A DNA stretch of 64,000 bases, taken from IMG/VR virus record IMGVR_UViG_3300029305_003442; one strand, written 5' to 3'. The position numbers were made by a program, and so were the translations under genes. Position 1 is the stretch's first letter; each line of letters opens with the position of its first letter. Source of the DNA: a virus. The notes under the pieces are model-generated. The model worked only from the letters and a program-made list of their open reading frames with translations, was not told where the DNA came from and did no database searches. Shown here piece by piece: positions 24,822 to 45,733 of this stretch.

Positions 24822-24851
24822 TTGAAATGAGATAAAGGAGAAAATATTTTA

Positions 24852-26210
24852 ATGTTACAAGATAGAGAAACAATTATTTTATATACTACAGCAGTATGTA
24901 ATTTAAATTGTACTTATTGTTTTATTGATAAAAATCCAAGTTTAAAAAAGATAGATCAATGGCTTGATGATAGTTTTTTAAAAACTCCAGATTATTATTT
25001 TGAATATGCAAAAAAAGCCGTTTTACAAGAAAAACTAAAAGAAGTATAGATTTGGGGTGGAGAACCTTTTTTGGGTATGCATAGAGCCTATGCAACAATA
25101 GATAAATTTATTAATTATTTTCCAAATTTAAAAAATTTTATGACTTCTACAAATTTTGTATCTCATTGTTTTTTTGAAGAATTTTATGGACTTCTTGATA
25201 TTTTTAGAAAGCATCCAAATAGAAATTTTACATATAGTTTATAGTTATCATTAGATGGTGTAAAGGAAATAAATGATATTAATAGAGGTAATGGAGTTAC
25301 TGATCGTTTTATTATTAATTTTGAAAAATTTGTTAAAGAATTACAAACTTTATTACCAAACAATTTAACATTAAAAATGCATTTAAAGCCCACTATTGAT
25401 ACAAATTCTTTGAAAAAATTATAGACTAAAGAACAAGTTTTTGAACAATTTATCTTTTTTGAAAGCTTCAATGAAGTATATTTGAAATATAATAAAAAAA
25501 ATAATTTACTATTTTCACTTCCAATTCCTAATACAGCTTGCCCATCTCCTCATACTCAAGAAGATGGAATAATGTTTGCAAATTATTGTAAAATAACAAG
25601 AGAGCTTGAAAAAGAAAATAAAAATAATAAAATTTTTAAATTTTATAATAATATTACAAGCTTTACTCCAAGAAGAAAAATTCAATATGACAAACTTTCA
25701 TTATCAGGATATTGTCAAGGTCATTGTGGTAATGGAAAAAGAGCTATTGGTCTTTTACCTAACAATATGGTTTCTTGTTGTCATAATGGTTTTGTTGATT
25801 TGCTAGCTGAATATAAAAAGAATGTATTAACAAATAGTGAACATATGGATAATGTTACTATTGAAAAAAGTTTATTTAAAAATAAACGTAATACTTTAAT
25901 TTTCCCTTATGATAGTAAAGAATTTGAAATGTATCAAAAACAATTAGAAGTTTTTTATCAAAATGATGATACTGCCAAAATTTCTAATTGTGCTTCTTTA
26001 ATTAAATTATTGGCTGATTTTGAACAAATTGATAAAAAATATCAAGATAAAAAAGAAGCTGTTAAAGGTGCTTATTTTATTTTTAATACTACATCATATT
26101 GTGTTAGAGATAATTTAGGTGTGACTGGAAGCATCTATATGTATCCTGTTGGTTTAATTAAATTATTGCTAAATGGAGCTAGAGAATATATTGAGGAAGG
26201 ATGTAATTAA
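24852..26210 (+). CDS. Radical SAM / SPASM-domain enzyme #1 (452 aa, 3 in-frame TAG)
   Basis: AAAGGAG SD; CNLNCTYC (CxxxCxxC) at residues 16-23; IWGGEPFL; SLDGVKEINDINRG (anSME-like). C-terminal Cys cluster CPSPH...CQGHCGNGKRAIGLLPNNMVSCCHNGF consistent with SPASM/twitch auxiliary cluster. Track ORFs 24852-25049 and 25482-26210 share frame 3. Confidence 0.75.
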
Positions 26211-27599: not shown

Positions 27600-28168
27600 T
27601 TAATATTTATGAAAATCTTATCATAAATGGATTAAATGTAGAATTAGCAAAAGATATTGAAAAATATTTGATTTATTTTTTAGACAATAACACTAATGAA
27701 AATTAGTTATTATTATATAATTTATTAAATATTTTAAAACGTCAATAGAATACATCAATTCTTCTAAATTTTTTAATTCAAGAAGTTGAATTAAAGTTAT
27801 TAAGATTAAGTTTTTCTAATAATGATATAAAAAATAATAAAGATTGTTATAATATTTCATCTTGTCAAAAAAATGAATCTAAAGAAGAATTAAAGAAAAT
27901 TTTAAAAGTAACTAATAAAGATTTATTCCCTCCAAAAGGGACTACAACTCGTATTATTAATAAAAGAAAAGAAGAAAATGAAGAACATGAATATGTTTTA
28001 GAGATAGATGATCAAGGTAATGTTTTAGAAATTTTAGAACATTATATAACAAAAAATGATGCAGATTCTATTGATATATTAAATGATTCTCCTTTAAGCA
28101 AACTTAAAGAAAAATATCTTAAAGAAGATAAAGAAAATAATTCTTTAACAGAAAATGATTTAGAATAA
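27569..28168 (+). CDS. Hypothetical helical protein (199 aa, 2 TAG) within rSAM cassette
   Basis: AAGGAG SD 27555-27560; ATG 27569; frame 2 to TAA 28166-28168. Confidence 0.45.
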
Positions 28169-28193
28169 TATTAATAATTTAAATATTTCTAAA

Positions 28194-29270
28194 ATGGGAT
28201 TAGGAATTATGCGTCATAATTCTAATCAACAATATACAAAACAACTAATAGAATATGCTTTAAATAATAAAATTAATTATTTTGAAGCTTGTGATTTCTA
28301 TTTACAAAACGCTTGTGAAATACGTCTTGGGGATGCTTTAAAATAGCATCCTCGGACTTCATATAAATTATGTGATAAACTTCCATTATCTACAATTCCT
28401 TATTTTATTCAAAAAAATAAAAATTGGAATTTAAATGATTATTTTAATAATCAATTAGCAAAATGTAGAACTGATTATTTTGATGTTTATTTGATTTAGG
28501 CTTTAGATGAACGTAATTTTAATTACTTGGAAAAATATCAAATTATTGATTTCTTTTTAAAACAAAAAGAACAAGGAAAAATTAAATTATTGGGTTTTTC
28601 TTTTCATGGAAAAGTTGATATTTTAAAAAAATTATTAGAAATGAAATGTTGGGATATCGTTTAGTTTCAATTAAATTATTATGATTGGATTTTAGGTGAG
28701 GCGAAAGAATTATATTTTTTAACAAAAGAATATGATTTACCTATTATTACAATGGGACCAACTAAAGGCGGATTATTAATAAATAATTTACCTAAAAAAT
28801 CATTAGATAGATTAAAAGAAAACAATATTAATCCAGTCTATTTATGTTATTCTTTTTTAGAAACTTTAGACAACGTTAAAATTATTTTATCAGGAGCAGA
28901 AACTTATGAAATGATTAAAGATAATTTAAATTATTTTGAAAATGAATCTCATAAATTAACTCCAGAAGAGTGGTAGCATATTAAACAAAATATTCAAGAT
29001 TATCAAGAATAGAGTTTAATTCAATGTACGGGATGTCGTTATTGTGTTCAAAGATGTCCTGCTAATTTACCAATAGATAAAATTTTTAAAGAATATAATA
29101 ATTTTATTCAATCTAAAGATTTATAGTCAAGAGAATTTTTATATTAGAATATTCATAGTTCTAACTCTACACAGAATTGTAAAAATTGTGGTCAATGTGT
29201 AAAAATTTGTCCGCAACATTTAAATATTCCAGAAATTTTTCATAAACAAATTTTCCCAGTAAGGAGATGA
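28194..29270 (+). CDS. Aldo/keto-reductase-family oxidoreductase fused to C-terminal 2x[4Fe-4S] ferredoxin domain (358 aa, 8 TAG)
   Basis: ATG 28194 in frame 3 with track ORF 28752-28976; C-terminal CTGCRYCVQRCP and CKNCGQCVKICP ferredoxin motifs; TGA 29268-29270. Confidence 0.6.
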
Positions 29271-37549: not shown

Positions 37550-39841
37550 TTATCCATGTTTAACCCTTCGCTCTACCTCATCTTGTTTACCAAGGTTAAA
37601 AGCAGTTTTATAATTACCAGTTAAATAACCAGTAACTCTACGCAATTGTTGAATTTCTTTACTTCCGCATTCTGGACATTCATCATTAAATTCATCAGTA
37701 TATCCGCATTTAAGACAAGTATCATTTGGAACATTTACTGCGAAATAAGGAATATCTTTATCCATAGCATAATTTACTAAAATTTCTAATGCCTCAAGAT
37801 TATTTTTAATTCCACTATCCAATTCAACATAAGTAATACATCCAGCAGAAGAATAACAGGTTAATTGAGATTCAATATCAATTTTTTCAAATGGAGACAT
37901 CTCTATCCACACAGGTACATGCATAGAATTAGTAAAGAATTCTTTATCGGAAACATTCTCAATTACACCATATTTATCTTTAAATTTCTTTAAAGCAGTA
38001 TGACATAGGTTTTCCGCAGGTGAATAATAAACACCAAAATTTAATTTATATTCATTTTTAAATTGAGCACAACGAGTTTTAAACAATTCTTCAATTCGTT
38101 TTGCTAATTCCATTCCTTCTGGAGTAGTATGATTTTTTCCAATAAGAATTTGAAGCGTTTCAGCAAGACCTAATTGTCCAAGAGCAAGGGTACCATGCTT
38201 AAGAGCGGAACGTATTCCTTCTTCTGGAATATATCCTGCCATAAGTCCATTTTCATACATAAACTTAGCAGAATCAGGAGATTGACTACAAATCCATTCA
38301 AATCTTTCAATAAGCATATCTTTAGCATCATATATTGCTTTATCAAGAATTTCCATAAAAATATCTACAAGTTCAGTAGTATATTTATATTTATCTGTAA
38401 ATTGATTTTCCCACTCTTCTTTTGCTTCCATGGCTAATGTAGGAAGAATAATTGTTACAGGACAAATATTACCTCTACCATCTTTGAGTTGACCAAAACC
38501 ATTAATATCCCAACCATTTGCTGTGCGGCATCCCATCGTTGAGAAATAAGTTCTTGGGTCATTAATATCATATCCAGCATTACCAGACCAATCAACATTT
38601 GCGTAATTGGGATATAGTCTTTGAGCGGTTGATTTTAAAGCCAATTGGAATAAATCATAATTGGGGTCTCCAGGTTTACGATTTACACCTTTCATACATT
38701 GAAAGATTCCACAAGGGAAAATAGATGTTTTATGTAAAGCTCCAATACCTTCAATGGATACTTCAAGCAAAGCTTTAGTCACCATTCTACCTTCTGGTAA
38801 AGTACAAGTACCATAATTAATAGAAGTAAATGGCAACTGATTGCCTGAACGAGATTGAAGTGTATTAAGATTATGATACATTCCTTCTACGGCTTGATGT
38901 GTTTCTTTTTTTGTTTCAAATAGAGCTGCTTGACTTAAATATTTATCAAGATTAACAATATTACTAAAAGTGAAATCTTCATATTTAAGATTAAATTCTT
39001 TTAAATATTTTTCTTTATGATTTTCAACCCAATTATCTAATTCTTCATTTGGCATATCCAAAAGAGACAGAGCTAAAAATTCGTCAGTATGTTTTACATA
39101 TTCTAATACATAATGTTTAAAAAATGATTTGCGTATATAAGGCACCATGGTCCAGTCAATATGTGTCGCAGAAACACCACCAAATTGTTGTAAACTTTGT
39201 AATTGGAAAATAACCGCTACAAGCTGAAATGCTGTATTTACAGAACCTGCGGGACGCACATCTGTTTGTCTGGTATTAAATCCTTTAGCAAGCAAATCAT
39301 CAAAAGGAATAGATAAGCAATTATGTGAACCAACATAATAACTATTTAAGTCATGAATATAAATACGATTATTTAAATGATTTTCTCTTGCTTTTGGTGA
39401 TACAATAAAATCTAATGCTAATTGTTTCGTGACCACATCTCCAGCTTCACCTGTGCGGCCTCCAAAAGATGCTTCATCTACATTAGCATTTTGGTTTTGG
39501 ATATTTGTAGCATTTAATTTTTCTTTAACTGCGTCAATAAAATCATTTTCATAATGTCTAGCAACTTCTTTTTTATATCTATAACGAATATATTCTCTTG
39601 CTACATCACTGCGTTCAGAACGCATTAAATATTCTTCAACTTTATCTTGAACTTTTTCAACAGTAAATGGTTTATCTGAATTATGTACAGCATCTTTATA
39701 AATAGCTTCCGCTATATCAGCAGCTGTATCTGTTTCATAAAGTTTTCCATCAACTTCAAGAAAAGCTTTATTTATTGCGGTAATAATTTTACCTTTATTA
39801 AAAGGAACAAGTGTTCCATCTCTTTTATAAATTTGTACCAT
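37550..39841 (-). CDS. nrdD: Anaerobic (class III) ribonucleoside-triphosphate reductase
   Basis: 763 aa; C-terminal glycyl-radical region RRVTGYLTG; Cys-rich zinc ribbon CLKCGYTDEFNDECPECG; no in-frame TAG. Confidence 0.85.
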   Translation of the reverse strand: MVQIYKRDGTLVPFNKGKIITAINKAFLEVDGKLYETDTAADIAEAIYKDAVHNSDKPFTVEKVQDKVEEYLMRSERSDVAREYIRYRYKKEVARHYENDFIDAVKEKLNATNIQNQNANVDEASFGGRTGEAGDVVTKQLALDFIVSPKARENHLNNRIYIHDLNSYYVGSHNCLSIPFDDLLAKGFNTRQTDVRPAGSVNTAFQLVAVIFQLQSLQQFGGVSATHIDWTMVPYIRKSFFKHYVLEYVKHTDEFLALSLLDMPNEELDNWVENHKEKYLKEFNLKYEDFTFSNIVNLDKYLSQAALFETKKETHQAVEGMYHNLNTLQSRSGNQLPFTSINYGTCTLPEGRMVTKALLEVSIEGIGALHKTSIFPCGIFQCMKGVNRKPGDPNYDLFQLALKSTAQRLYPNYANVDWSGNAGYDINDPRTYFSTMGCRTANGWDINGFGQLKDGRGNICPVTIILPTLAMEAKEEWENQFTDKYKYTTELVDIFMEILDKAIYDAKDMLIERFEWICSQSPDSAKFMYENGLMAGYIPEEGIRSALKHGTLALGQLGLAETLQILIGKNHTTPEGMELAKRIEELFKTRCAQFKNEYKLNFGVYYSPAENLCHTALKKFKDKYGVIENVSDKEFFTNSMHVPVWIEMSPFEKIDIESQLTCYSSAGCITYVELDSGIKNNLEALEILVNYAMDKDIPYFAVNVPNDTCLKCGYTDEFNDECPECGSKEIQQLRRVTGYLTGNYKTAFNLGKQDEVERRVKHG

Positions 39842-40466: not shown

Positions 40467-40692
40467 TTATGTCAATAGCCTCATCTTCATATTCATATTT
40501 TAATTGATTAGGTAATTCATTACGATAAAAAGTATATTTCCTTTTACAGGTAGGACAAAAATAAACATACTGTTCAGGATAAGTACATAAAACTTTACCA
40601 GTACTTTTTATTTCTTCATTACAATCTTCACAATAAAAGCTATCTATATAGATAGCTTTTACATATCGTCTTTTAATTTTCATCTTCTTCAA
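40453..40692 (-). CDS. Small zinc-ribbon protein (79 aa)
   Basis: CEDC...CPTC pairs. Confidence 0.4.
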   Translation of the reverse strand: MKKMKIKRRYVKAIYIDSFYCEDCNEEIKSTGKVLCTYPEQYVYFCPTCKRKYTFYRNELPNQLKYEYEDEAIDINEEV

Positions 40693-43180
40693 TTCCTCCT
40701 TGATAACGTTCCGAAGTTAATTTTAAATCAGTTTTATTTACAATTTCTTCAATTTTATACAACTGATGACCTGGCGTACTATTGTATTTTTTAACAATAA
40801 AATTATCTCCAGAACGAATACCCATAACCGCAATCATATTACCACGATTAAACCAAGATTTTTCTACAATCTTTTTAGTTCCATCAGGATTTTTGATAGA
40901 AATTTGTTTATCAAATAAAGAAAAATATTCTTTTCTAAATTTAACTTCTACAACTCCATGAGTTGTTAATAACGTTACTGTGCTTTTAACCTTATTTTTT
41001 GCTATACAGGTTCCGCAAATTTTATGAAGTTTAAACATATGAATTTCTTTTCCTCCACGAGCAAACACTTGGTCTACTATTGGTTCTTCTGGCAAAGCAA
41101 AGAAATCAACAAATCCATATTTATTATGATTTACATCAATTAATTCATGTTCGTGATAATAAAAACATAAAACTTCCATCTCCCAAGCAGAAATTGTACC
41201 TGAAGCATATTTCTCCCAATCTTCAAGAAAAACAGCATCATTTATTTTTACTAAGATTTCATCTTTATTTTCATTAATCCATGTTCTAAAAATATCCATC
41301 CAATTTTGATAAATTTTTTCCCATTGCTTAATATTCATAAAGAAAATTGTATCTTTTGTTATAATCAAATTATCACAATGTACTTCAATAAGAAAATTAA
41401 TAGCTCTTTCATCTAATTTATATAATTCATTATTAAATTTACAAATTGCTTTTAAATAACGATTAAATTCATATACTCTTCTTGCTAAAATTTGTTCTTC
41501 AGTTTCAGATGGAAGTAGATTATATTTAATTAATCCACCCATATTTTGTAGAGTAATTCTTTTTTTTCTATCGCAAGTTTCCCAAATATACCAAGCCATA
41601 CAAGTTTTACGTTCCATCATATCATCAAAAGCTCCACCCTTAATCAATGAAATCATAGCTTGCTTGCCTGGATTTACTTTATTCAAAAAATCTCGCGGAG
41701 ATACATAAGGTCTATGTTCAATGATAGATGCTACGACATCATCACCAACATTTAATAATCCTTTTAAACCAAAAAGAATTCTATTGTTCTCAGCATCTGG
41801 CGCAAAGCCATATTTAGATTTATTAATATTTGCTAAACTAACTTTAATACCAGCAGCTTGAATATCACCAATAGCTTTCGCAATTTTACCATAATCAGTA
41901 CTTGCGCCAGCTTCTTCATCAGTTGCGCCACTATTAACAATTAAACAAGCTGTATTCCAATAGATAGGATTAAATTTAGTTGCCAATAAAATTGTTTGAA
42001 TACCAACAAATGAATAAGGTAATGAATGATTTAAACTAAAAGCATATCCAAGTTGTGGAGCGACCGCAACTTCCCAGACATAATCTGCTATATTAGAATT
42101 TCCAATTTTTTCATACACTTGCGCTTTTAATTCCGGAATTTTTGACATCTGTTTTTTTGCTACTATTTTACGAGCAGCGTTTGCTTCACCTAAAGTAAAA
42201 TTAGCAACCTCCATCAAAATTTCCATCATTTGCTCTTGGATAGGACAGCAACCATAATATTTATCACAATGTTTATGCATTAACTCAATCATTTTTTCAG
42301 GCAAATGATTAAATTTCATTTCTTTATCAAAAATATTAATTCCTGATTTTTGAATGCGAGCATATCTATCTTGCTGACTTTCTTTACCTTTTTCAGACAT
42401 AAGTCTCATCATAGCATTTGCGGCAGTCATCTCTAAAGGATTTTGTGGTTTAAGTTTTTTCGCAATTGCTAATCCAACACCACCACTAAACTGAAATACA
42501 TCCAATATATCACCTGCGGCTAAATGATTCCAAATATAATTTTCAGATGTGTCAATTATTTCTGGATGAATATATTTATTATAAGTTTCTCTTAAACCAA
42601 TATTTTCAATTAAATTATCCTCATGTAACATTTCAAAACATTTAATAATTTTATCAGAAACTTCAGTTACAAGAAAATCATATTTAGTATCACCTGCTGC
42701 TTCCGCCGCATGTAAGTCAAAACAAGTAATTAAATCTCCATTTGGTGCTCTCATAAAAGATGCTGTATCAAATGGATTTTTATCATAAAGAATTACACCA
42801 GAAGCATGAATGCCACGTTTATTTACTAATCCCTCTATTGAAATGATAATATCAACCAATCCAGGATATTGATTAACTTCTTTTATAAAAGTTGTAACTG
42901 GTTTTCTATCTTTTTCTTCATCACCATATAATACTTCTGAAATAGACCATAAAAATCCACGTTCTTGAGGAATTAATGATGACATATATTGCGCTACATC
43001 TACATCTATTCCTTCTGGATATTCTTCACTTCTATAACCACGACAAGCTGTAAGAACAGCTGATTTAGTTCCTTCAGTTCCAAAAGTTGCTACCTGAACC
43101 AAACCAAATTCTCCACGTTCTTTACGAATTGCTTCAAAAATCGCTGGTCTTTTACTTGGAGCCAGGTCTATATCAATATC
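40673..43180 (-). CDS. dnaE: DNA polymerase III alpha (DnaE-type) exon 2 (835 aa; polymerase core), begins DIDIDLAPSKR...
   Basis: Reading frame of track ORF 40673-43102 is open upstream to 43180, where DIDID follows the exon-1 motif RFLNKERAELP; RGIHASGVIL palm motif; no TAG. Confidence 0.75.
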   Translation of the reverse strand, partial: DIDIDLAPSKRPAIFEAIRKERGEFGLVQVATFGTEGTKSAVLTACRGYRSEEYPEGIDVDVAQYMSSLIPQERGFLWSISEVLYGDEEKDRKPVTTFIKEVNQYPGLVDIIISIEGLVNKRGIHASGVILYDKNPFDTASFMRAPNGDLITCFDLHAAEAAGDTKYDFLVTEVSDKIIKCFEMLHEDNLIENIGLRETYNKYIHPEIIDTSENYIWNHLAAGDILDVFQFSGGVGLAIAKKLKPQNPLEMTAANAMMRLMSEKGKESQQDRYARIQKSGINIFDKEMKFNHLPEKMIELMHKHCDKYYGCCPIQEQMMEILMEVANFTLGEANAARKIVAKKQMSKIPELKAQVYEKIGNSNIADYVWEVAVAPQLGYAFSLNHSLPYSFVGIQTILLATKFNPIYWNTACLIVNSGATDEEAGASTDYGKIAKAIGDIQAAGIKVSLANINKSKYGFAPDAENNRILFGLKGLLNVGDDVVASIIEHRPYVSPRDFLNKVNPGKQAMISLIKGGAFDDMMERKTCMAWYIWETCDRKKRITLQNMGGLIKYNLLPSETEEQILARRVYEFNRYLKAICKFNNELYKLDERAINFLIEVHCDNLIITKDTIFFMNIKQWEKIYQNWMDIFRTWINENKDEILVKINDAVFLEDWEKYASGTISAWEMEVLCFYYHEHELIDVNHNKYGFVDFFALPEEPIVDQVFARGGKEIHMFKLHKICGTCIAKNKVKSTVTLLTTHGVVEVKFRKEYFSLFDKQISIKNPDGTKKIVEKSWFNRGNMIAVMGIRSGDNFIVKKYNSTPGHQLYKIEEIVNKTDLKLTSERYQGGIEEDEN

Positions 43181-44362
43181 CGTTTATTGGACTATATTTT
43201 TCATAATGACTTACTAAGAGCATTTTACTTCAGTCATTACTAGAACATCTTTCAGACGGTGCTTATCTCCGCCTTACATAAATAGTCTCTACACATTTAA
43301 TCTTATTTTTCTATTTGTTTCCAATAATAGCCTTTATATAAAGTTCCATTTTTAATCGCTTTATCTAATTGAGTGTGTCCTTTCATTCCTAAGAATTGTA
43401 AGACTGCGGTTTTAGCATTAAATATTTGAATTAAATTGTAATTTTCATCATACATTTCAATTCGTTTTCCATTTAATGCTTGATTACCACTTTTACCATA
43501 CATACCATTTTTTTCGCCAGCGGTTTTACCTTTACTATTTACAGACATTTTCTACTTAGACTCTTCTGTATGTTTTTTACCATACATTCCATTATTAGAA
43601 CCTTTTGTTTTTTCACTCATTTTTTGTTTAAACTCTTCAGTTCTATAAGGAGAGTTGTCTCTTTCAAATTCTGCCCAATAAGATAAAAATGCTTTAGTTT
43701 TTTCACTATGGTATTTTCCATACATTCCATTATTCTTACCACGATTTACTTCACTTAATTTTCGGCACAAAACTTCTTTTTCTTCTGGTGTATATCCTGC
43801 GGTAGTGTTTCCTCCACAACCGCCCTCATGAATATTATAAAACAATGGATTTGATGTGGCATTATATAAGGCAATAAATTGTTTTTCTTTTTCACTATTT
43901 TCTAAATCATTTTTAGAAACAAATAAAATGGACTTTGTAAAACAGTCTTTTCCATATTTGGCAATTTCTTTTTTCAATTCTTTTCCGCTGCCTAAATATG
44001 AATCATCTAATTCTCCATAATGTTTTCCGATATATTTCATACCATTTATATTATTAGTAGTTAAATAAATATAATGTTGTTTCATTTAAACAACCCCCTT
44101 TCATATATATTTAACTTTTAGAATTAGACAATGACCTGACTTTGTCCAAGATTTTTAGCACGGTATTCCCAATCTAACCTTTTTTAGGTCATAGGGTCTC
44201 TTAGTCAGTTGATTCGCATTTATATAACATAAATCTTATTTCGCTGATACCGTTAGCCTGCGGTTACTCGTCTCGCCGGTCGGATGACCGGGCCGCCGCA
44301 GACACCCATTAAGCAATGGTTAATGTTCTTTTTTTACAACTGCCCAATATCAATATTAGACT
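43181..44362 (-). ncRNA. Group I self-splicing intron (about 1182 nt) in dnaE, carrying a homing-endonuclease ORF
   Basis: 5' exon ends ...GAACUGCCU (44363); intron-internal guide GGGCAGUU (44345-44338) pairs with AACUGCCU giving U.G at the splice site; intron ends with G (43181) before exon-2 GAUAUUGAU; GC-rich structured segment 44150-44330 and 43200-43300 flanks the ORF. Confidence 0.65.
43303..44085 (-). CDS. Intron-encoded GIY-YIG homing endonuclease with NUMOD3-like repeats and C-terminal DNA-binding region; in-frame TAG at 43552-43554
   Basis: YIYLTTNNINGMKYIGKH GIY-YIG motif; repeated NNGMYGK(K/Y)H; track ORFs 43552-44085 and 43303-43548 are in the same frame separated by TAG + one codon. 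Confidence 0.7.
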
Positions 44363-45733
44363 AGGCAGTTCGGCTCTCTCTTTATTTAAAAATCTCCAAT
44401 AAGGGAGACCCCAACGAATTGGGTCAAGTTGAGTAATACCAAGCAAATAATTTGAAAGAAAACCGGTCGCAGAACCTCGTCCAGGTCCAACAATTGAACC
44501 GCATTCCCAAAACAAATCAATATAATGTTTAAAAGTATTGAAATAAGCGAAAAGACAATCATCAAGTTTTTCTCCAATAAACTTAATTACATCTGCCTCA
44601 ATTTCAATACGATTAATATATTCTTCATTAAATAAATTTTTATTTATTAATTCTTGTAGACATTCATTAATCCAATATCTTTCTTGAGATTCATCAGATA
44701 TTAAAAGTGATTTAATAATCGGCCAATTAGTATCTAATTCATCTTTTAATGAATTATTAATACCAAAATAAGATAAAGTTTTAGGATAATCTTTTACTTT
44801 TACTTTTGGAATAATTTGTTTTCTTTCAATTGAATAAAATTCAATTTTATTTTTTATTTCATTTGTATTATTTAAAATCCATTCTGAAATATCATCATCT
44901 TGATAAGCATATGTTAATAATTCTTTAGCTTCATTATAATCCATTAAACGAGCAAATTCATAAAATGAATCAACTTCTCGTTCTCCACCTTTAGAATTTA
45001 AATAAGCTTTATGAACCCATCTATCTTGACTTGTATAATAATGAGCATCAGTTCCTGCGACTAATTTAATTCCAAAAGATTGAGAAATAGAGTATAATTT
45101 TTTATTAACCAATACTTGGTCTTTTGTAGTTGCTGGGGCGCATTCTAAATAGAAATCATCACCAAATAATTCAAGACAATAATTAATAAAATCAATTATT
45201 TTTGAATAATATACTTTCATTGTTTCCATGTCTTGAACTTCTTCAGCTAAACAAAATTGTAATAAATTTGATGATAATTCTCCACCAAGACAAGCTGTTG
45301 TAGCTATTAAATGTCCTTTATATTTATTAACAATAGTTGATAATTCTTTTTTTAAAACTGGAACTCTTTCCATTTTTCTATCAACATATAAATTATACCA
45401 AGCTATTGAACTTAATTCTTTTAATGCCATATAACCAATTTTATCTTTGGCAATTAAAATAAAGTGATAATATTTTTGACCACTACTTCTATCATCTGTT
45501 AAATAAATTTCATTACCAAGTGCAATTGTAAAATCTGGATTTGTCTCTCTCAATTTCTTAGCATATTGATTTACTTCCATGTGCGCAGATAAACATTCAT
45601 GGTCTGTAATTGCTATACCGTTTAAACCCAATTCAATTGCTTTATCAATTAAATCTTTAGGTCTATTTATACAATCAAGTAAGCGAATATTTGAATACAT
45701 TGTATGATTATGACAATTAAAATAACTGTTCAT
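44363..45733 (-). CDS. dnaE: DNA polymerase III alpha (DnaE-type) exon 1 (457 codons; PHP domain)
   Basis: MNSYFNCHNHTMYS...GIAITDHE PHP motifs; WRFLNKERAELP at exon end; track ORF 44309-45733 runs on into intron for 17 codons. Confidence 0.75.

What the first reader, a model, noticed from the sequence alone, without database searches (positions are those of the whole stretch)
43181..44362. dnaE split by a group I intron
DnaE-type Pol III alpha is encoded in two pieces, 44363-45733 and 40673-43180. The first ends ...RFLNKERAELP and the second begins DIDIDLAPSKR..., together restoring the conserved RvSMPDIDIDF motif. There is no start or SD at the second piece. The intervening 1182 nt has a P1 helix (exon AACUGCCU pairing with internal GGGCAGUU, with U.G at the 5' splice site), a terminal G before exon 2, GC-rich structured segments, and a homing-endonuclease ORF.
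Basis: partly seen in the sequence, partly recalled or inferred. Interest (0 to 1): 0.7.

Follow-up and report, generated by a model that had tools for sequence, protein, structure and literature searches.

The report
Group I intron splitting phage dnaE
The DNA polymerase III alpha gene of this uncultured phage is interrupted by a 1,182-base group I intron that carries its own homing-endonuclease gene: an ordinary kind of mobile element, though its ribozyme belongs to an oddly built family that the standard Rfam model does not recognise.

Summary
DnaE is encoded in two pieces on the minus strand, 44363-45733 and 40673-43180. Joining them gives a seamless Pfam match, and 75 of 80 related phage contigs carry exactly this junction (...AELP|DIDID...) uninterrupted. 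The 1,182-nt insert (43181-44362) is a group I intron. It has an 8-bp P1 with U.G at the 5' splice site, an 11-12 bp P10, a terminal G, and a P3/P7 pseudoknot core with T4-like IA2 sequence elements. Two relatives carry ORF-less 304-310-nt versions at the same site. Across five same-site introns, 99% of predicted pairs hold and 20 pairs show compensatory changes. A 260-aa GIY-YIG/NUMOD3 homing endonuclease sits in the P6 loop. Its single in-frame TAG aligns with Gln in all four orthologs, and the phage reads TAG as sense in its plus-strand genes. Rfam RF00028 gives no hit, although it scores the T4 nrdD intron at 105 bits. The family has two extra hairpins between P3 and P4, and this version has no P2 and no P9. 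Verdict: interpretation supported. This is a new member of a known kind with a structurally unusual ribozyme. Splicing itself is inferred, not shown.

The parts
44363..45733 (-). dnaE exon 1 (457 aa: PHP domain plus first part of the Pol III alpha NTPase domain). Its last 8 nt, AACUGCCU (44363-44370), form the 5' strand of P1.
   Evidence: Pfam PHP 5.9e-25 and PF07733 profile positions 9-102. 75 intron-less homologs.
43181..44362 (-). Group I intron, 1,182 nt. It starts AGUCUAAU... and ends ...CAAUAAACG.
   Evidence: Boundaries are fixed by the intron-less alleles. Structure and covariation.
44338..44357 (-). Internal guide region. AAUAUUGAUAUU (44346-44357) is the intron strand of P10. GGGCAGUU (44338-44345) is the 3' strand of P1.
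   Evidence: P1 is 8/8 paired in 5 sequences. P10 is 12 columns, 98% paired, with one compensatory A-U to G-C change between intron and exon 2. L093 keeps 9 bp.
44322..44329 (-). P3 5' strand, AGAACAUU. It follows an A-rich linker (44330-44337), and there is no P2.
   Evidence: It pairs with 43242-43249. Two compensatory pairs within the same-site set, and different sequences in every related intron.
44256..44319 (-). Two extra hairpins between P3 and P4. Hairpin a is 44306-44319, the linker is GUGU, and hairpin b is 44256-44303. Hairpin b carries a window-specific 36-nt GC-rich extension at 44262-44297.
   Evidence: RNAalifold predicts both, and hairpin b has 2 compensatory pairs. Both are present in all family members at other sites and genes. 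Absent from the T4 nrdD intron.
44160..44253 (-). P4 (ACGGU 44249-44253 / ACCGU 44160-64) enclosing P5 and a long P5 extension (44165-44248). The Q-like element AAUACCGUGCUAAA follows.
   Evidence: P4 invariant; P5 sub-helices covary. The Q element resembles T4 AAUCCGUUGCUAAAU.
43299..44153 (-). P6 (AAUCUU 44148-44153 / AAGAUU 43299-43304), with the endonuclease cassette in its loop.
   Evidence: The ORF-less relatives close this helix with GGAA (L031) or a 2-nt loop (L084). L093 has a different 9-bp P6.
43303..44085 (-). GIY-YIG / NUMOD3 homing-endonuclease gene, 260 aa, with an in-frame TAG at 43552-43554. The SD-like AAAGGGGG lies at 44094-44101. The stop codon UAA overlaps the P6 3' strand.
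   Evidence: Pfam SegE_GIY-YIG 26.6 bits (cut-off 25) and NUMOD3 4.3e-18. The TAG aligns with CAA (Gln) in 4/4 orthologs, and the C-terminal 81 aa are conserved.
43282..43298 (-). J6/7 (AAAUGUGUAGA) and the P7 5' strand GACUAU (43282-43287).
   Evidence: P7 is identical to T4 nrdD (GACUAU/AUAGUC). Invariant in all family members.
43254..43274 (-). P7.2-like hairpin, AGGCGG-AGAUAAGCA-CCGUCU. There is no P7.1 in this version.
   Evidence: 3 compensatory pairs. Counterpart of T4 GGGUC-AAGC-GACCC followed by GAAAC.
43242..43249 (-). P3 3' strand, GAUGUUCU.
43203..43240 (-). P8 hairpin, 9 bp.
   Evidence: 5 of 9 pairs show compensatory changes.
43181..43202 (-). J8/7 (GAAAAAU), P7 3' strand AUAGUC (43190-43195), and a 9-nt tail CAAUAAACG ending in the terminal G (43181). 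There is no P9.
   Evidence: The tail is 7-14 nt and A-rich in all same-site introns.
40673..43180 (-). dnaE exon 2 (835 aa). It begins DIDIDLAPSK, and its first 11 nt, GAUAUUGAUAU, form the exon strand of P10.
   Evidence: Pfam PF07733 profile positions 103-259, finger and HHH_6 domains. tblastn.

Best explanation
A mobile group I intron interrupts dnaE between the codons for Pro457 and the first Asp of the DIDID motif. Its core resembles the IA2 phage introns such as T4 td and nrdD.

Inferred mechanism:
1. dnaE is transcribed as one pre-mRNA.
2. The intron's guide sequence GGGCAGUU pairs with the end of exon 1 to form P1, with U.G at the cleavage site.
3. An external guanosine bound in P7 attacks that bond.
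4. The adjacent guide segment AAUAUUGAUAUU holds the start of exon 2 (P10).
5. The terminal G enters the P7 site and the exons are ligated. This restores a 1,292-aa DnaE.

The P6 loop carries a GIY-YIG/NUMOD3 endonuclease gene with its own ribosome-binding site. Its product would cut intron-less dnaE alleles of co-infecting relatives, and repair would copy the intron in (homing).

The endonuclease needs TAG to be read as Gln, as the phage's plus-strand (presumably late) genes do. It may therefore only be made once suppression is active.

Shown: gene anatomy, boundaries, conserved and covarying RNA structure, presence/absence polymorphism of the intron and of the ORF, and TAG aligned with Gln. 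Inferred: catalysis, homing, and the timing of endonuclease synthesis.
For: - Junction: the Pfam match is seamless across it.
- Intron-less alleles: 75 of 80 related loci lack the intron at exactly this point.
- Same-site introns: 7 more were found in other contigs. Two are ORF-less (L031 310 nt, L084 304 nt), so the ribozyme and the ORF are separable modules.
- Independent fold prediction: RNAalifold predicts P1, P3, P4, P5, P6, P7.2 and P8 on its own.
- Covariation with P7 and P10 added: 99.1% of 439 cells pair, against 29-42% when partners are slid. 20 pairs have changes on both sides, against 0-3 when slid. 0 of 500 shuffles reach the observed score.
- The more diverged L093 keeps every helix with different sequences.
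- Related introns at other sites and genes keep the same helices with different sequences.
- P10 covaries between intron and exon 2.
- The core elements line up with the T4 nrdD intron read from AF158101, which RF00028 certifies.
- My own model of the 3' domain has its best hit in the 16-kb T4 locus exactly on that core, at E = 0.076.
- Endonuclease: GIY-YIG/NUMOD3, and its TAG aligns with Gln codons.
- All intron-containing alleles share GAACTGCCT, and none of the 75 intron-less ones does. This is as expected from co-conversion or selection for P1.
- The sequence is identical in four independent assemblies.
Against: - There is no Rfam RF00028 hit at E<=10 on the window, the ORF-less homolog or other family members, although the model works on T4.
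- P4 and P7 never vary, so covariation neither supports nor contradicts them.
- There is no P2, P7.1 or P9, and two hairpins sit where J3/4 is normally three nucleotides. Activity of such a core has not been demonstrated.
- The link to T4 through my model is weak (15 bits).
- The fold z-score is modest at -2.2.
- There are no transcript data.
Confidence: 0.92

Rival explanations
1. The gene is really split. A free-standing GIY-YIG endonuclease gene has inserted into dnaE, and the two halves are translated separately and assemble, as reported for some split genes in T4-like phages.
For: Gene callers in public assemblies call piece 2 as its own ORF of 809 or 770 aa. A TTG at 43102 is preceded by GGAG 8 nt upstream.
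Against: That TTG lies 27 codons inside the conserved sequence. A product starting there would lack the DIDID motif, which holds catalytic aspartates of Pol III alpha (established knowledge). The GGAG is part of the conserved ERGEFG coding sequence. A stop codon lies two codons before exon 2. About 335 nt of the insert outside the ORF are conserved and covary as RNA helices, which a simple gene insertion does not predict. ORF-less inserts of 304-310 nt at the same site still split the gene.
Confidence: 0.03
2. It is a decayed intron that no longer splices, so dnaE is a pseudogene in this lineage.
For: There is no P9 or P2 and no Rfam hit.
Against: Every helix is intact in the window copy. Compensatory changes show continuing selection on the structure. 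Both exons are full length with no stop codons or frameshifts. No other replicative polymerase appeared among the window genes examined. The identical sequence recurs on 24 contigs from several samples.
Confidence: 0.03
3. It is a 'fractured gene': the DnaE halves are joined at the protein level by a split intein, with an endonuclease gene between them (Dassa et al. 2009, PMC2677866, listed).
For: DnaE is the classic host of split inteins, and an endonuclease gene does lie between the halves.
Against: The exon 1 frame runs only 17 codons into the insert. Exon 2 is preceded by only two codons after a stop. Only PHP and DNA_pol3_alpha hit the 474-aa product, with no Hint/intein domain. The extein +1 residue would be Asp, not Cys/Ser/Thr.
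Confidence: 0.01
4. It is another class of intervening sequence, such as a group II intron.
For: None specific.
Against: There is no reverse-transcriptase ORF. The insert has no GUGYG start or AY end. Rfam lists no group II hit. The guide-sequence pairing and terminal G are group I features.
Confidence: 0.01

Closest known systems
T4 td intron with I-TevI (group IA2)
   Same: A phage gene for DNA precursor or replication functions is split by a group I intron that has P7.2-type peripheral helices. A GIY-YIG endonuclease ORF sits in the P6-region loop with its own ribosome-binding site. The td layout is recalled from memory. The core comparison here was made against T4 nrdD.
   Different: The host gene is dnaE. 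There is no P2, P7.1 or P9. Two extra hairpins lie between P3 and P4. The endonuclease has NUMOD3 repeats, shows no detectable sequence match to any solved structure, and contains a recoded TAG.
T4 nrdD (sunY) intron with I-TevII
   Same: P7 is identical (GACUAU/AUAGUC). The Q element, P6 context, J6/7, P7.2 plus GAAA(C/G), P3', P8 and J8/7 follow the same order and have similar sequences. There is no P2. It is the best hit of my model R1 in the T4 locus.
   Different: T4 has P3 directly followed by UAAA and P4, and it has P7.1 and P9-P9.2, with the ORF downstream of the core. RF00028 scores it at 105 bits and gives nothing for the window intron.
Recoded intron endonuclease in 'Agate' phages (Borges et al., bioRxiv 10.1101/2021.08.26.457843)
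   Same: A group I intron endonuclease sits inside an early gene of a stop-codon-recoded gut phage and carries in-frame recoded stops. The authors propose that this delays endonuclease production until late in infection.
   Different: There the recoded codon is TGA (Trp) and usage is statistically enriched. Here it is a single TAG (Gln) among 9 Gln codons. In some relatives dnaE itself carries 1-6 TAGs, so the gating argument is weaker.
Intron-rich uncultured gut phages (zeta crAss-like phages, PMC7886860; Jug phages, PMC12880540)
   Same: Essential genes, including polymerases and nrdD, are split by group I introns with HNH, GIY-YIG or LAGLIDADG endonucleases, often together with alternative coding. 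Splicing was confirmed by metatranscriptomes for Jug phages.
   Different: Those phages use PolA or PolB, or are 360-400 kb. This phage clade (contigs up to ~200 kb) uses DnaE, and its nearest isolate homolog is Bacillus SPbeta YorL at 40% identity.

Membership tests
Group I intron | P1: the end of the 5' exon pairs with an internal guide sequence, with a U.G wobble at the splice site | tested here: met
   AACUGCCU/GGGCAGUU is 8/8 paired with a terminal U.G in all 6 same-site introns. Family members at other sites have different P1 sequences that also end in U.G (L021 GGCGUU/GACGCC, L085 GCCGAU/GUCGGC).
Group I intron | The last intron nucleotide is G (omega-G) | tested here: met
   G at 43181. 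All same-site introns end in G, with the boundary fixed by intron-less alleles.
Group I intron | P10: the guide region pairs with the start of the 3' exon | tested here: met
   11-12 bp. An A-U to G-C compensatory change is seen in L031 and L093.
Group I intron | P3/P7 pseudoknot with P8 between P3' and P7' | tested here: met
   P3 has 2 compensatory pairs in the same-site set and a different sequence in each related intron. P8 has 5 compensatory pairs. P7 is invariant and identical to T4.
Group I intron | P4-P5-P6 domain with conserved P/Q-type sequences | tested here: met
   P4 ACGGU/ACCGU is invariant. P5 sub-helices and P6 covary. The Q element AAUACCGUGCUAAA compares with T4 AAUCCGUUGCUAAAU.
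Group I intron | Short J3/4 linking P3 directly to P4 | tested here: not met
   Two hairpins (44256-44319) lie between the P3 5' strand and the UAA that precedes P4. This is conserved in all family members and absent in T4.
Group I intron | P9 / P9.0 after P7' | tested here: not met
   Only 9 nt (CAAUAAACG) follow P7'. Family members at the site 27 nt upstream do have a P9 hairpin.
Group I intron | Match to Rfam RF00028 at or above the gathering score | tested here: not met
   No hit at E<=10. Positive controls: T4 nrdD 105 bits and L088 104 bits. This is a detection criterion, not a structural definition.
Group I intron | Guanosine-dependent self-splicing | not testable with these tools
   Requires in vitro transcription and splicing, or RNA-seq.
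Subgroup IA2 (T4-like) | P7.1 and P7.2 between P7 and P3' | tested here: inconclusive
   A P7.2-like hairpin is present and covaries. P7.1 is absent here but present in related L021, L053 and L088 introns.
GIY-YIG homing endonuclease | N-terminal GIY-YIG catalytic domain plus a DNA-binding module | tested here: met
   SegE_GIY-YIG 26.6 bits (cut-off 25). Generic GIY-YIG 21.6-22.7 bits (cut-off 22.6). NUMOD3 65 bits.
GIY-YIG homing endonuclease | Site-specific cleavage of the intron-less allele | not testable with these tools
   Candidate targets are listed.
TAG-to-Gln recoded phage (code 15-like) | In-frame TAG in conserved genes aligning with Gln, and a suppressor tRNA | tested here: inconclusive
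   ORF coverage of 1-30000 rises from 56% to 98% when TAG is read as sense. TAG aligns with CAA in the endonuclease, in 4 of 4 orthologs at the window position. No tRNA was found in the window or in 53 related loci.

The most novel reading that the evidence does not exclude
The intron belongs to an uncatalogued structural subgroup of IA-type group I introns that is common in TAG-recoded gut phages. Members were found at dnaE sites 1 and 2, probably at a third dnaE site (L002, weak model hit), in nrdD and in other genes. The subgroup is defined by a conserved two-hairpin module (a-GUGU-b) inserted into J3/4. In the dnaE version there is also no P2, P7.1 or P9, and a very long P10 compensates. 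Endonuclease synthesis is tied to late infection through a recoded TAG. If this reading is correct, current covariance models undercount introns in such phages.
Probability: 0.3. Interest if true: 0.5.

Novelty: new member of a known kind. Interest (0 to 1): 0.35.

Why it matters
For annotation: dnaE in this phage clade should be annotated as one spliced gene of 1,292 aa. Public gene calls currently list three or four separate ORFs.

For methods: a family of phage group I introns is missed completely by RF00028, even in its 310-nt ORF-less form. Intron counts in uncultured phages that rely on that model are therefore too low.

For biology: the locus offers a compact natural set for studying homing in uncultured phages. 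It includes intron-less alleles, intron without ORF, and intron with ORF, with at least four insertion sites in one gene. It also gives another case where an intron endonuclease inside a TAG-free replication gene depends on stop-codon suppression.

Tried and rejected
1. An alternative core 5' of the ORF, with P7 as CUGACU/AGUCAG and P3 as GGGUGUCU/AGAGACCC, looked plausible by eye. I rejected it because AGUCAG lies inside the endonuclease cassette, which the ORF-less L031 and L084 introns lack.

2. Rfam scans were negative for this family: gathering threshold on the whole window, E<=10 on the region, E<=10 on the ORF-less homolog, and gathering on 9 related loci.

3. blastn of the intron against 50,697 phage records found only a 51-nt NUMOD3-coding match in Klebsiella phages.

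4. My 3'-domain covariance model with default filters did not reach T4. With filters off, the T4 nrdD core was the top hit but only at E = 0.076.

5. The GC-rich insert has no exact match in IMG/VR.

6. The endonuclease has no significant sequence match in the PDB.

7. No suppressor tRNA was found in the window or in 53 related loci.

8. Literature searches for a P3.1/P3.2-type insertion and for a dnaE group I intron in phages found nothing specific.

9. A scan of 185,579 species genomes for the P4-P5-Q pattern gave only three MAG contigs.

10. crAss-like affiliation was considered and dropped, because those phages use PolA or PolB.

Full report
**The observation**

The minus strand between 40673 and 45733 encodes a DnaE-type polymerase in two pieces. 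Piece 1 (44363-45733, 457 aa) carries the PHP domain and PF07733 profile positions 9-102. Piece 2 (40673-43180, 835 aa) starts at profile position 103 and continues through the finger and HhH domains. The junction is therefore seamless at the level of the protein family.

I fetched 80 related loci from IMG/VR with piece 1 as query and located both pieces in each by tblastn. In 75 loci, residue 457 of piece 1 directly abuts residue 1 of piece 2, reading FLNKERAELP|DIDIDLAPSK.

An in-frame TAA lies two codons before exon 2. The first possible start is a TTG 27 codons inside it. A product starting there would lack the DIDID motif, which holds catalytic aspartates in Pol III alpha (established knowledge). 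The same 1,182 nt occur without any difference in four independent assemblies from JGI and ENA.

**Relatives at the same site**

Pattern scans and the protein-based scan found seven more introns at exactly this position:

| Locus | Length | ORF |
|---|---|---|
| L031 | 310 nt | none |
| L084 | 304 nt | none |
| L043 | 1,155 nt | endonuclease |
| L089 | 1,136 nt | endonuclease |
| L090 | 1,137 nt | endonuclease |
| L093 | 1,157 nt | endonuclease (more diverged) |
| L091 | partial | not determined |

The ORF-less copies join ...GUGCUAAAAAUC directly to GAUUAAAUGUGUAGAGACUAU... through a 4- or 8-nt loop. This shows that the endonuclease cassette, about 845 nt, sits in the loop of one hairpin (P6). 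It also ruled out a first candidate core that I had drawn upstream of the ORF.

All intron-containing alleles share the exon sequence GAACTGCCT. None of the 75 intron-less alleles has it; they differ at synonymous positions. Co-conversion during homing, or selection for P1 pairing, would produce this pattern.

**Structure**

RNAalifold on five cores with the ORF removed predicted P1, P3, two hairpins, P4, P5 with an extension, P6, a P7.2-like hairpin and P8, without guidance from me. I added the two pairings it cannot draw, P7 and P10, and counted pairs:

- 99.1% of 439 cells form standard pairs, against 29-42% when the 3' partners are slid by 1-3 columns.
- 20 pairs show changes on both sides, against 0-3 in the slid controls.
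- No shuffle out of 500 reaches the observed covariation score.
- Compensatory pairs per helix: P3 2, hairpin b 2, P7.2 3, P8 5.
- P10 has one compensatory pair, between an intron base and a synonymous exon 2 position.

P1, P4 and P7 never vary, which says nothing either way. The more diverged L093 keeps every helix with new sequences, for example P3 AGAACGUG/UGCGUUCU and P8 GCAAUAUCU/AGAUAUUGU. The single-sequence fold of the window core recovers the same helices, with z = -2.2.

**Is it a group I intron?**

The order of elements is that of a group I ribozyme:

1. P1, with U.G at the splice site.
2. The guide region, which also forms P10.
3. P3 5' strand.
4. P4-P5-P4'.
5. P6.
6. J6/7.
7. P7 5' strand.
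8. P7.2.
9. P3 3' strand.
10. P8.
11. J8/7.
12. P7 3' strand.
13. Terminal G.

I read the T4 nrdD (sunY) intron from AF158101 for a direct comparison.

| Element | T4 nrdD intron | Window intron |
|---|---|---|
| Q, P6 context, J6/7 and P7 5' strand | CAAUCCGUUGCUAAAU-CAGC-AGUA-GCUG-UAAAUGCCCAAC-GACUAU | GAAUACCGUGCUAAA-AAUCUU[ORF]AAGAUU-AAAUGUGUAGA-GACUAU |
| P7.2, linker and P3 3' strand | GUA-GGGUC-AAGC-GACCC-GAAAC-GGCAGA | GUA-AGGCGG-AGAUAAGCA-CCGUCU-GAAA-GAUGUUC |
| J8/7 and P7 3' strand | AAGAUAUAGUC | AAAAUAUAGUC |

A covariance model that I built from the 3' domain of the six same-site introns finds family members at other sites and genes. With filters off, its best hit in the 16-kb T4 locus falls exactly on the nrdD intron core. 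That hit is weak, at 15 bits and E = 0.076.

**The negative Rfam result**

RF00028 gives no hit in any of four scans:

- at the gathering threshold on the whole window;
- at E<=10 on 43100-44450;
- at E<=10 on the 310-nt ORF-less L031 intron;
- at the gathering threshold on nine related loci that hold family members.

The model itself works. It scores the T4 nrdD intron at 105 bits, and a different, canonical intron in L088 at 104 bits. The miss therefore reflects real departures from the consensus:

- Two hairpins (a, b), joined by a conserved GUGU, lie between the P3 5' strand and the UAA that precedes P4. T4 has only UAAA there.
- P5 carries an extension of about 80 nt.
- There is no P2 and no P7.1.
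- Only 9 nt follow P7', so there is no P9.

The a-GUGU-b module is conserved, with covarying stems, in related introns in several places: 27 nt upstream in dnaE (L021, L053, L056), in an nrdD-like gene (L083), and in other genes (L085, L088, L081). I did not find this layout in the papers I could search. I could not test the published subtype models.

**The endonuclease**

The ORF 43552-44085 matches SegE-type GIY-YIG and NUMOD3. It is followed in the same frame by TAG, one codon, and an 81-aa ORF. Read through, the product is 260 aa.

In an alignment with the four orthologous intron ORFs, the window TAG aligns with CAA (Gln) in all four. The region after it is well conserved. The orthologs carry their own TAGs at other positions, two of which align with Gln in the window.

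The whole window points the same way. Treating TAG as sense raises ORF coverage of 1-30000 (plus strand, tail-like and other genes) from 56% to 98%. Those genes hold 2-25 in-frame TAGs each. The minus-strand replication genes hold none (GyrA, ligase, DnaB, RecJ, RecD-like helicase, DnaE, NrdD).

Across the 80 relatives, DnaE has no TAG in 55 and 1-6 in 25, and almost never TAA or TGA. No suppressor tRNA was found in the sequence at hand.

Borges et al. described the same situation with TGA in Agate phages and proposed that it delays endonuclease synthesis. Here that remains a hypothesis resting on a single codon.

**Rivals**

- Separate translation of the two halves is contradicted by the stop codon before exon 2, by the loss of the catalytic motif from any internal start, and by about 335 nt of non-coding insert that evolves as paired RNA.
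- A split-intein arrangement is excluded by the ORF anatomy and the absence of Hint domains.
- A dead intron is unlikely, given intact helices, compensatory evolution, intact exons and recurrence across samples.
- Nothing suggests a group II intron.

**Context and novelty**

The nearest DnaE in isolated phages is Bacillus SPbeta YorL at 40% identity. crAss-like phages use PolA or PolB.

Group I introns with homing endonucleases in phage polymerase and ribonucleotide reductase genes are well known (PMC3984707). They are abundant in uncultured gut phages, and splicing there has been confirmed by metatranscriptomics (PMC7886860, PMC12880540).

The finding is therefore a correct call of a known kind of element in a new host gene and phage clade. 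Two modestly interesting aspects remain: a ribozyme architecture that RF00028 cannot see, and a recoded endonuclease gene. Splicing, homing and timing are inferred, not shown.

Noticed in passing
window 1-30000 (+ strand) versus 30000-64000 (- strand): The plus-strand genes are open only if TAG is read as an amino acid. ORF coverage rises from 56% to 98%, with 2-25 in-frame TAGs per gene. The minus-strand replication genes contain none. The phage appears to use TAG-to-Gln recoding in one gene block only.
   Followed up: partly
window 43552-43554 (-): The in-frame TAG inside the intron endonuclease gene aligns with CAA (Gln) in all four orthologs. Public gene calls split the gene into 177 + 81 aa in some assemblies and give 260 aa in others.
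   Followed up: yes
window 44262-44297 (-): A 36-nt insert of about 70% GC (GGCGGCCCGGUCAUCCGACCGGCGAGACGAGUAACC) extends hairpin b of the intron. It is absent from all other same-site introns and has no exact match in IMG/VR, but it is identical in four assemblies of this lineage. Its function is unknown.
   Followed up: partly
L021 7338-8318, L053, L056; L029 and L070 (exon 2 aa ~46); L002/3/4/8/27/29/43/62/72 (exon 2 aa 378-383): Relatives carry further insertions of about 1-1.2 kb at three other dnaE positions. The one 27 nt upstream is a member of the same intron family with its GIY-YIG ORF in the P8 loop. The one at aa 378-383 gives a weak hit to my model (L002 3686-3815).
   Followed up: partly
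L088 1892-2566 (-): A canonical RF00028 group I intron (104 bits) lies immediately next to a member of the atypical family within one gene of a related phage.
   Followed up: no
L083 1-250 (-): A member of the same intron family interrupts an nrdD-like gene after ...HALCNAG in a 238-kb viral contig. The window's own nrdD (37550-39841) is uninterrupted.
   Followed up: no
window 24831-26210 and 28149-29270 (+): A radical SAM enzyme gene and an aldo/keto reductase gene with a 4Fe-4S dicluster domain lie in the TAG-recoded block, next to tail-like genes.
   Followed up: no
window 43254-43274 (-) and homologs: The 9-nt loop of the P7.2-like hairpin (AGAUAAGCA) is almost invariant across same-site introns while its stem covaries. 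This suggests a tertiary contact.
   Followed up: no
L099-L101 (genome contigs): The P4-P5-Q pattern of the family occurs in only three of 185,579 species genomes. All three are MAG contigs, labelled Eubacteriales, Christensenellaceae and Mycoplasmatota. This may hint at Bacillota hosts or at mis-binned phage contigs.
   Followed up: no
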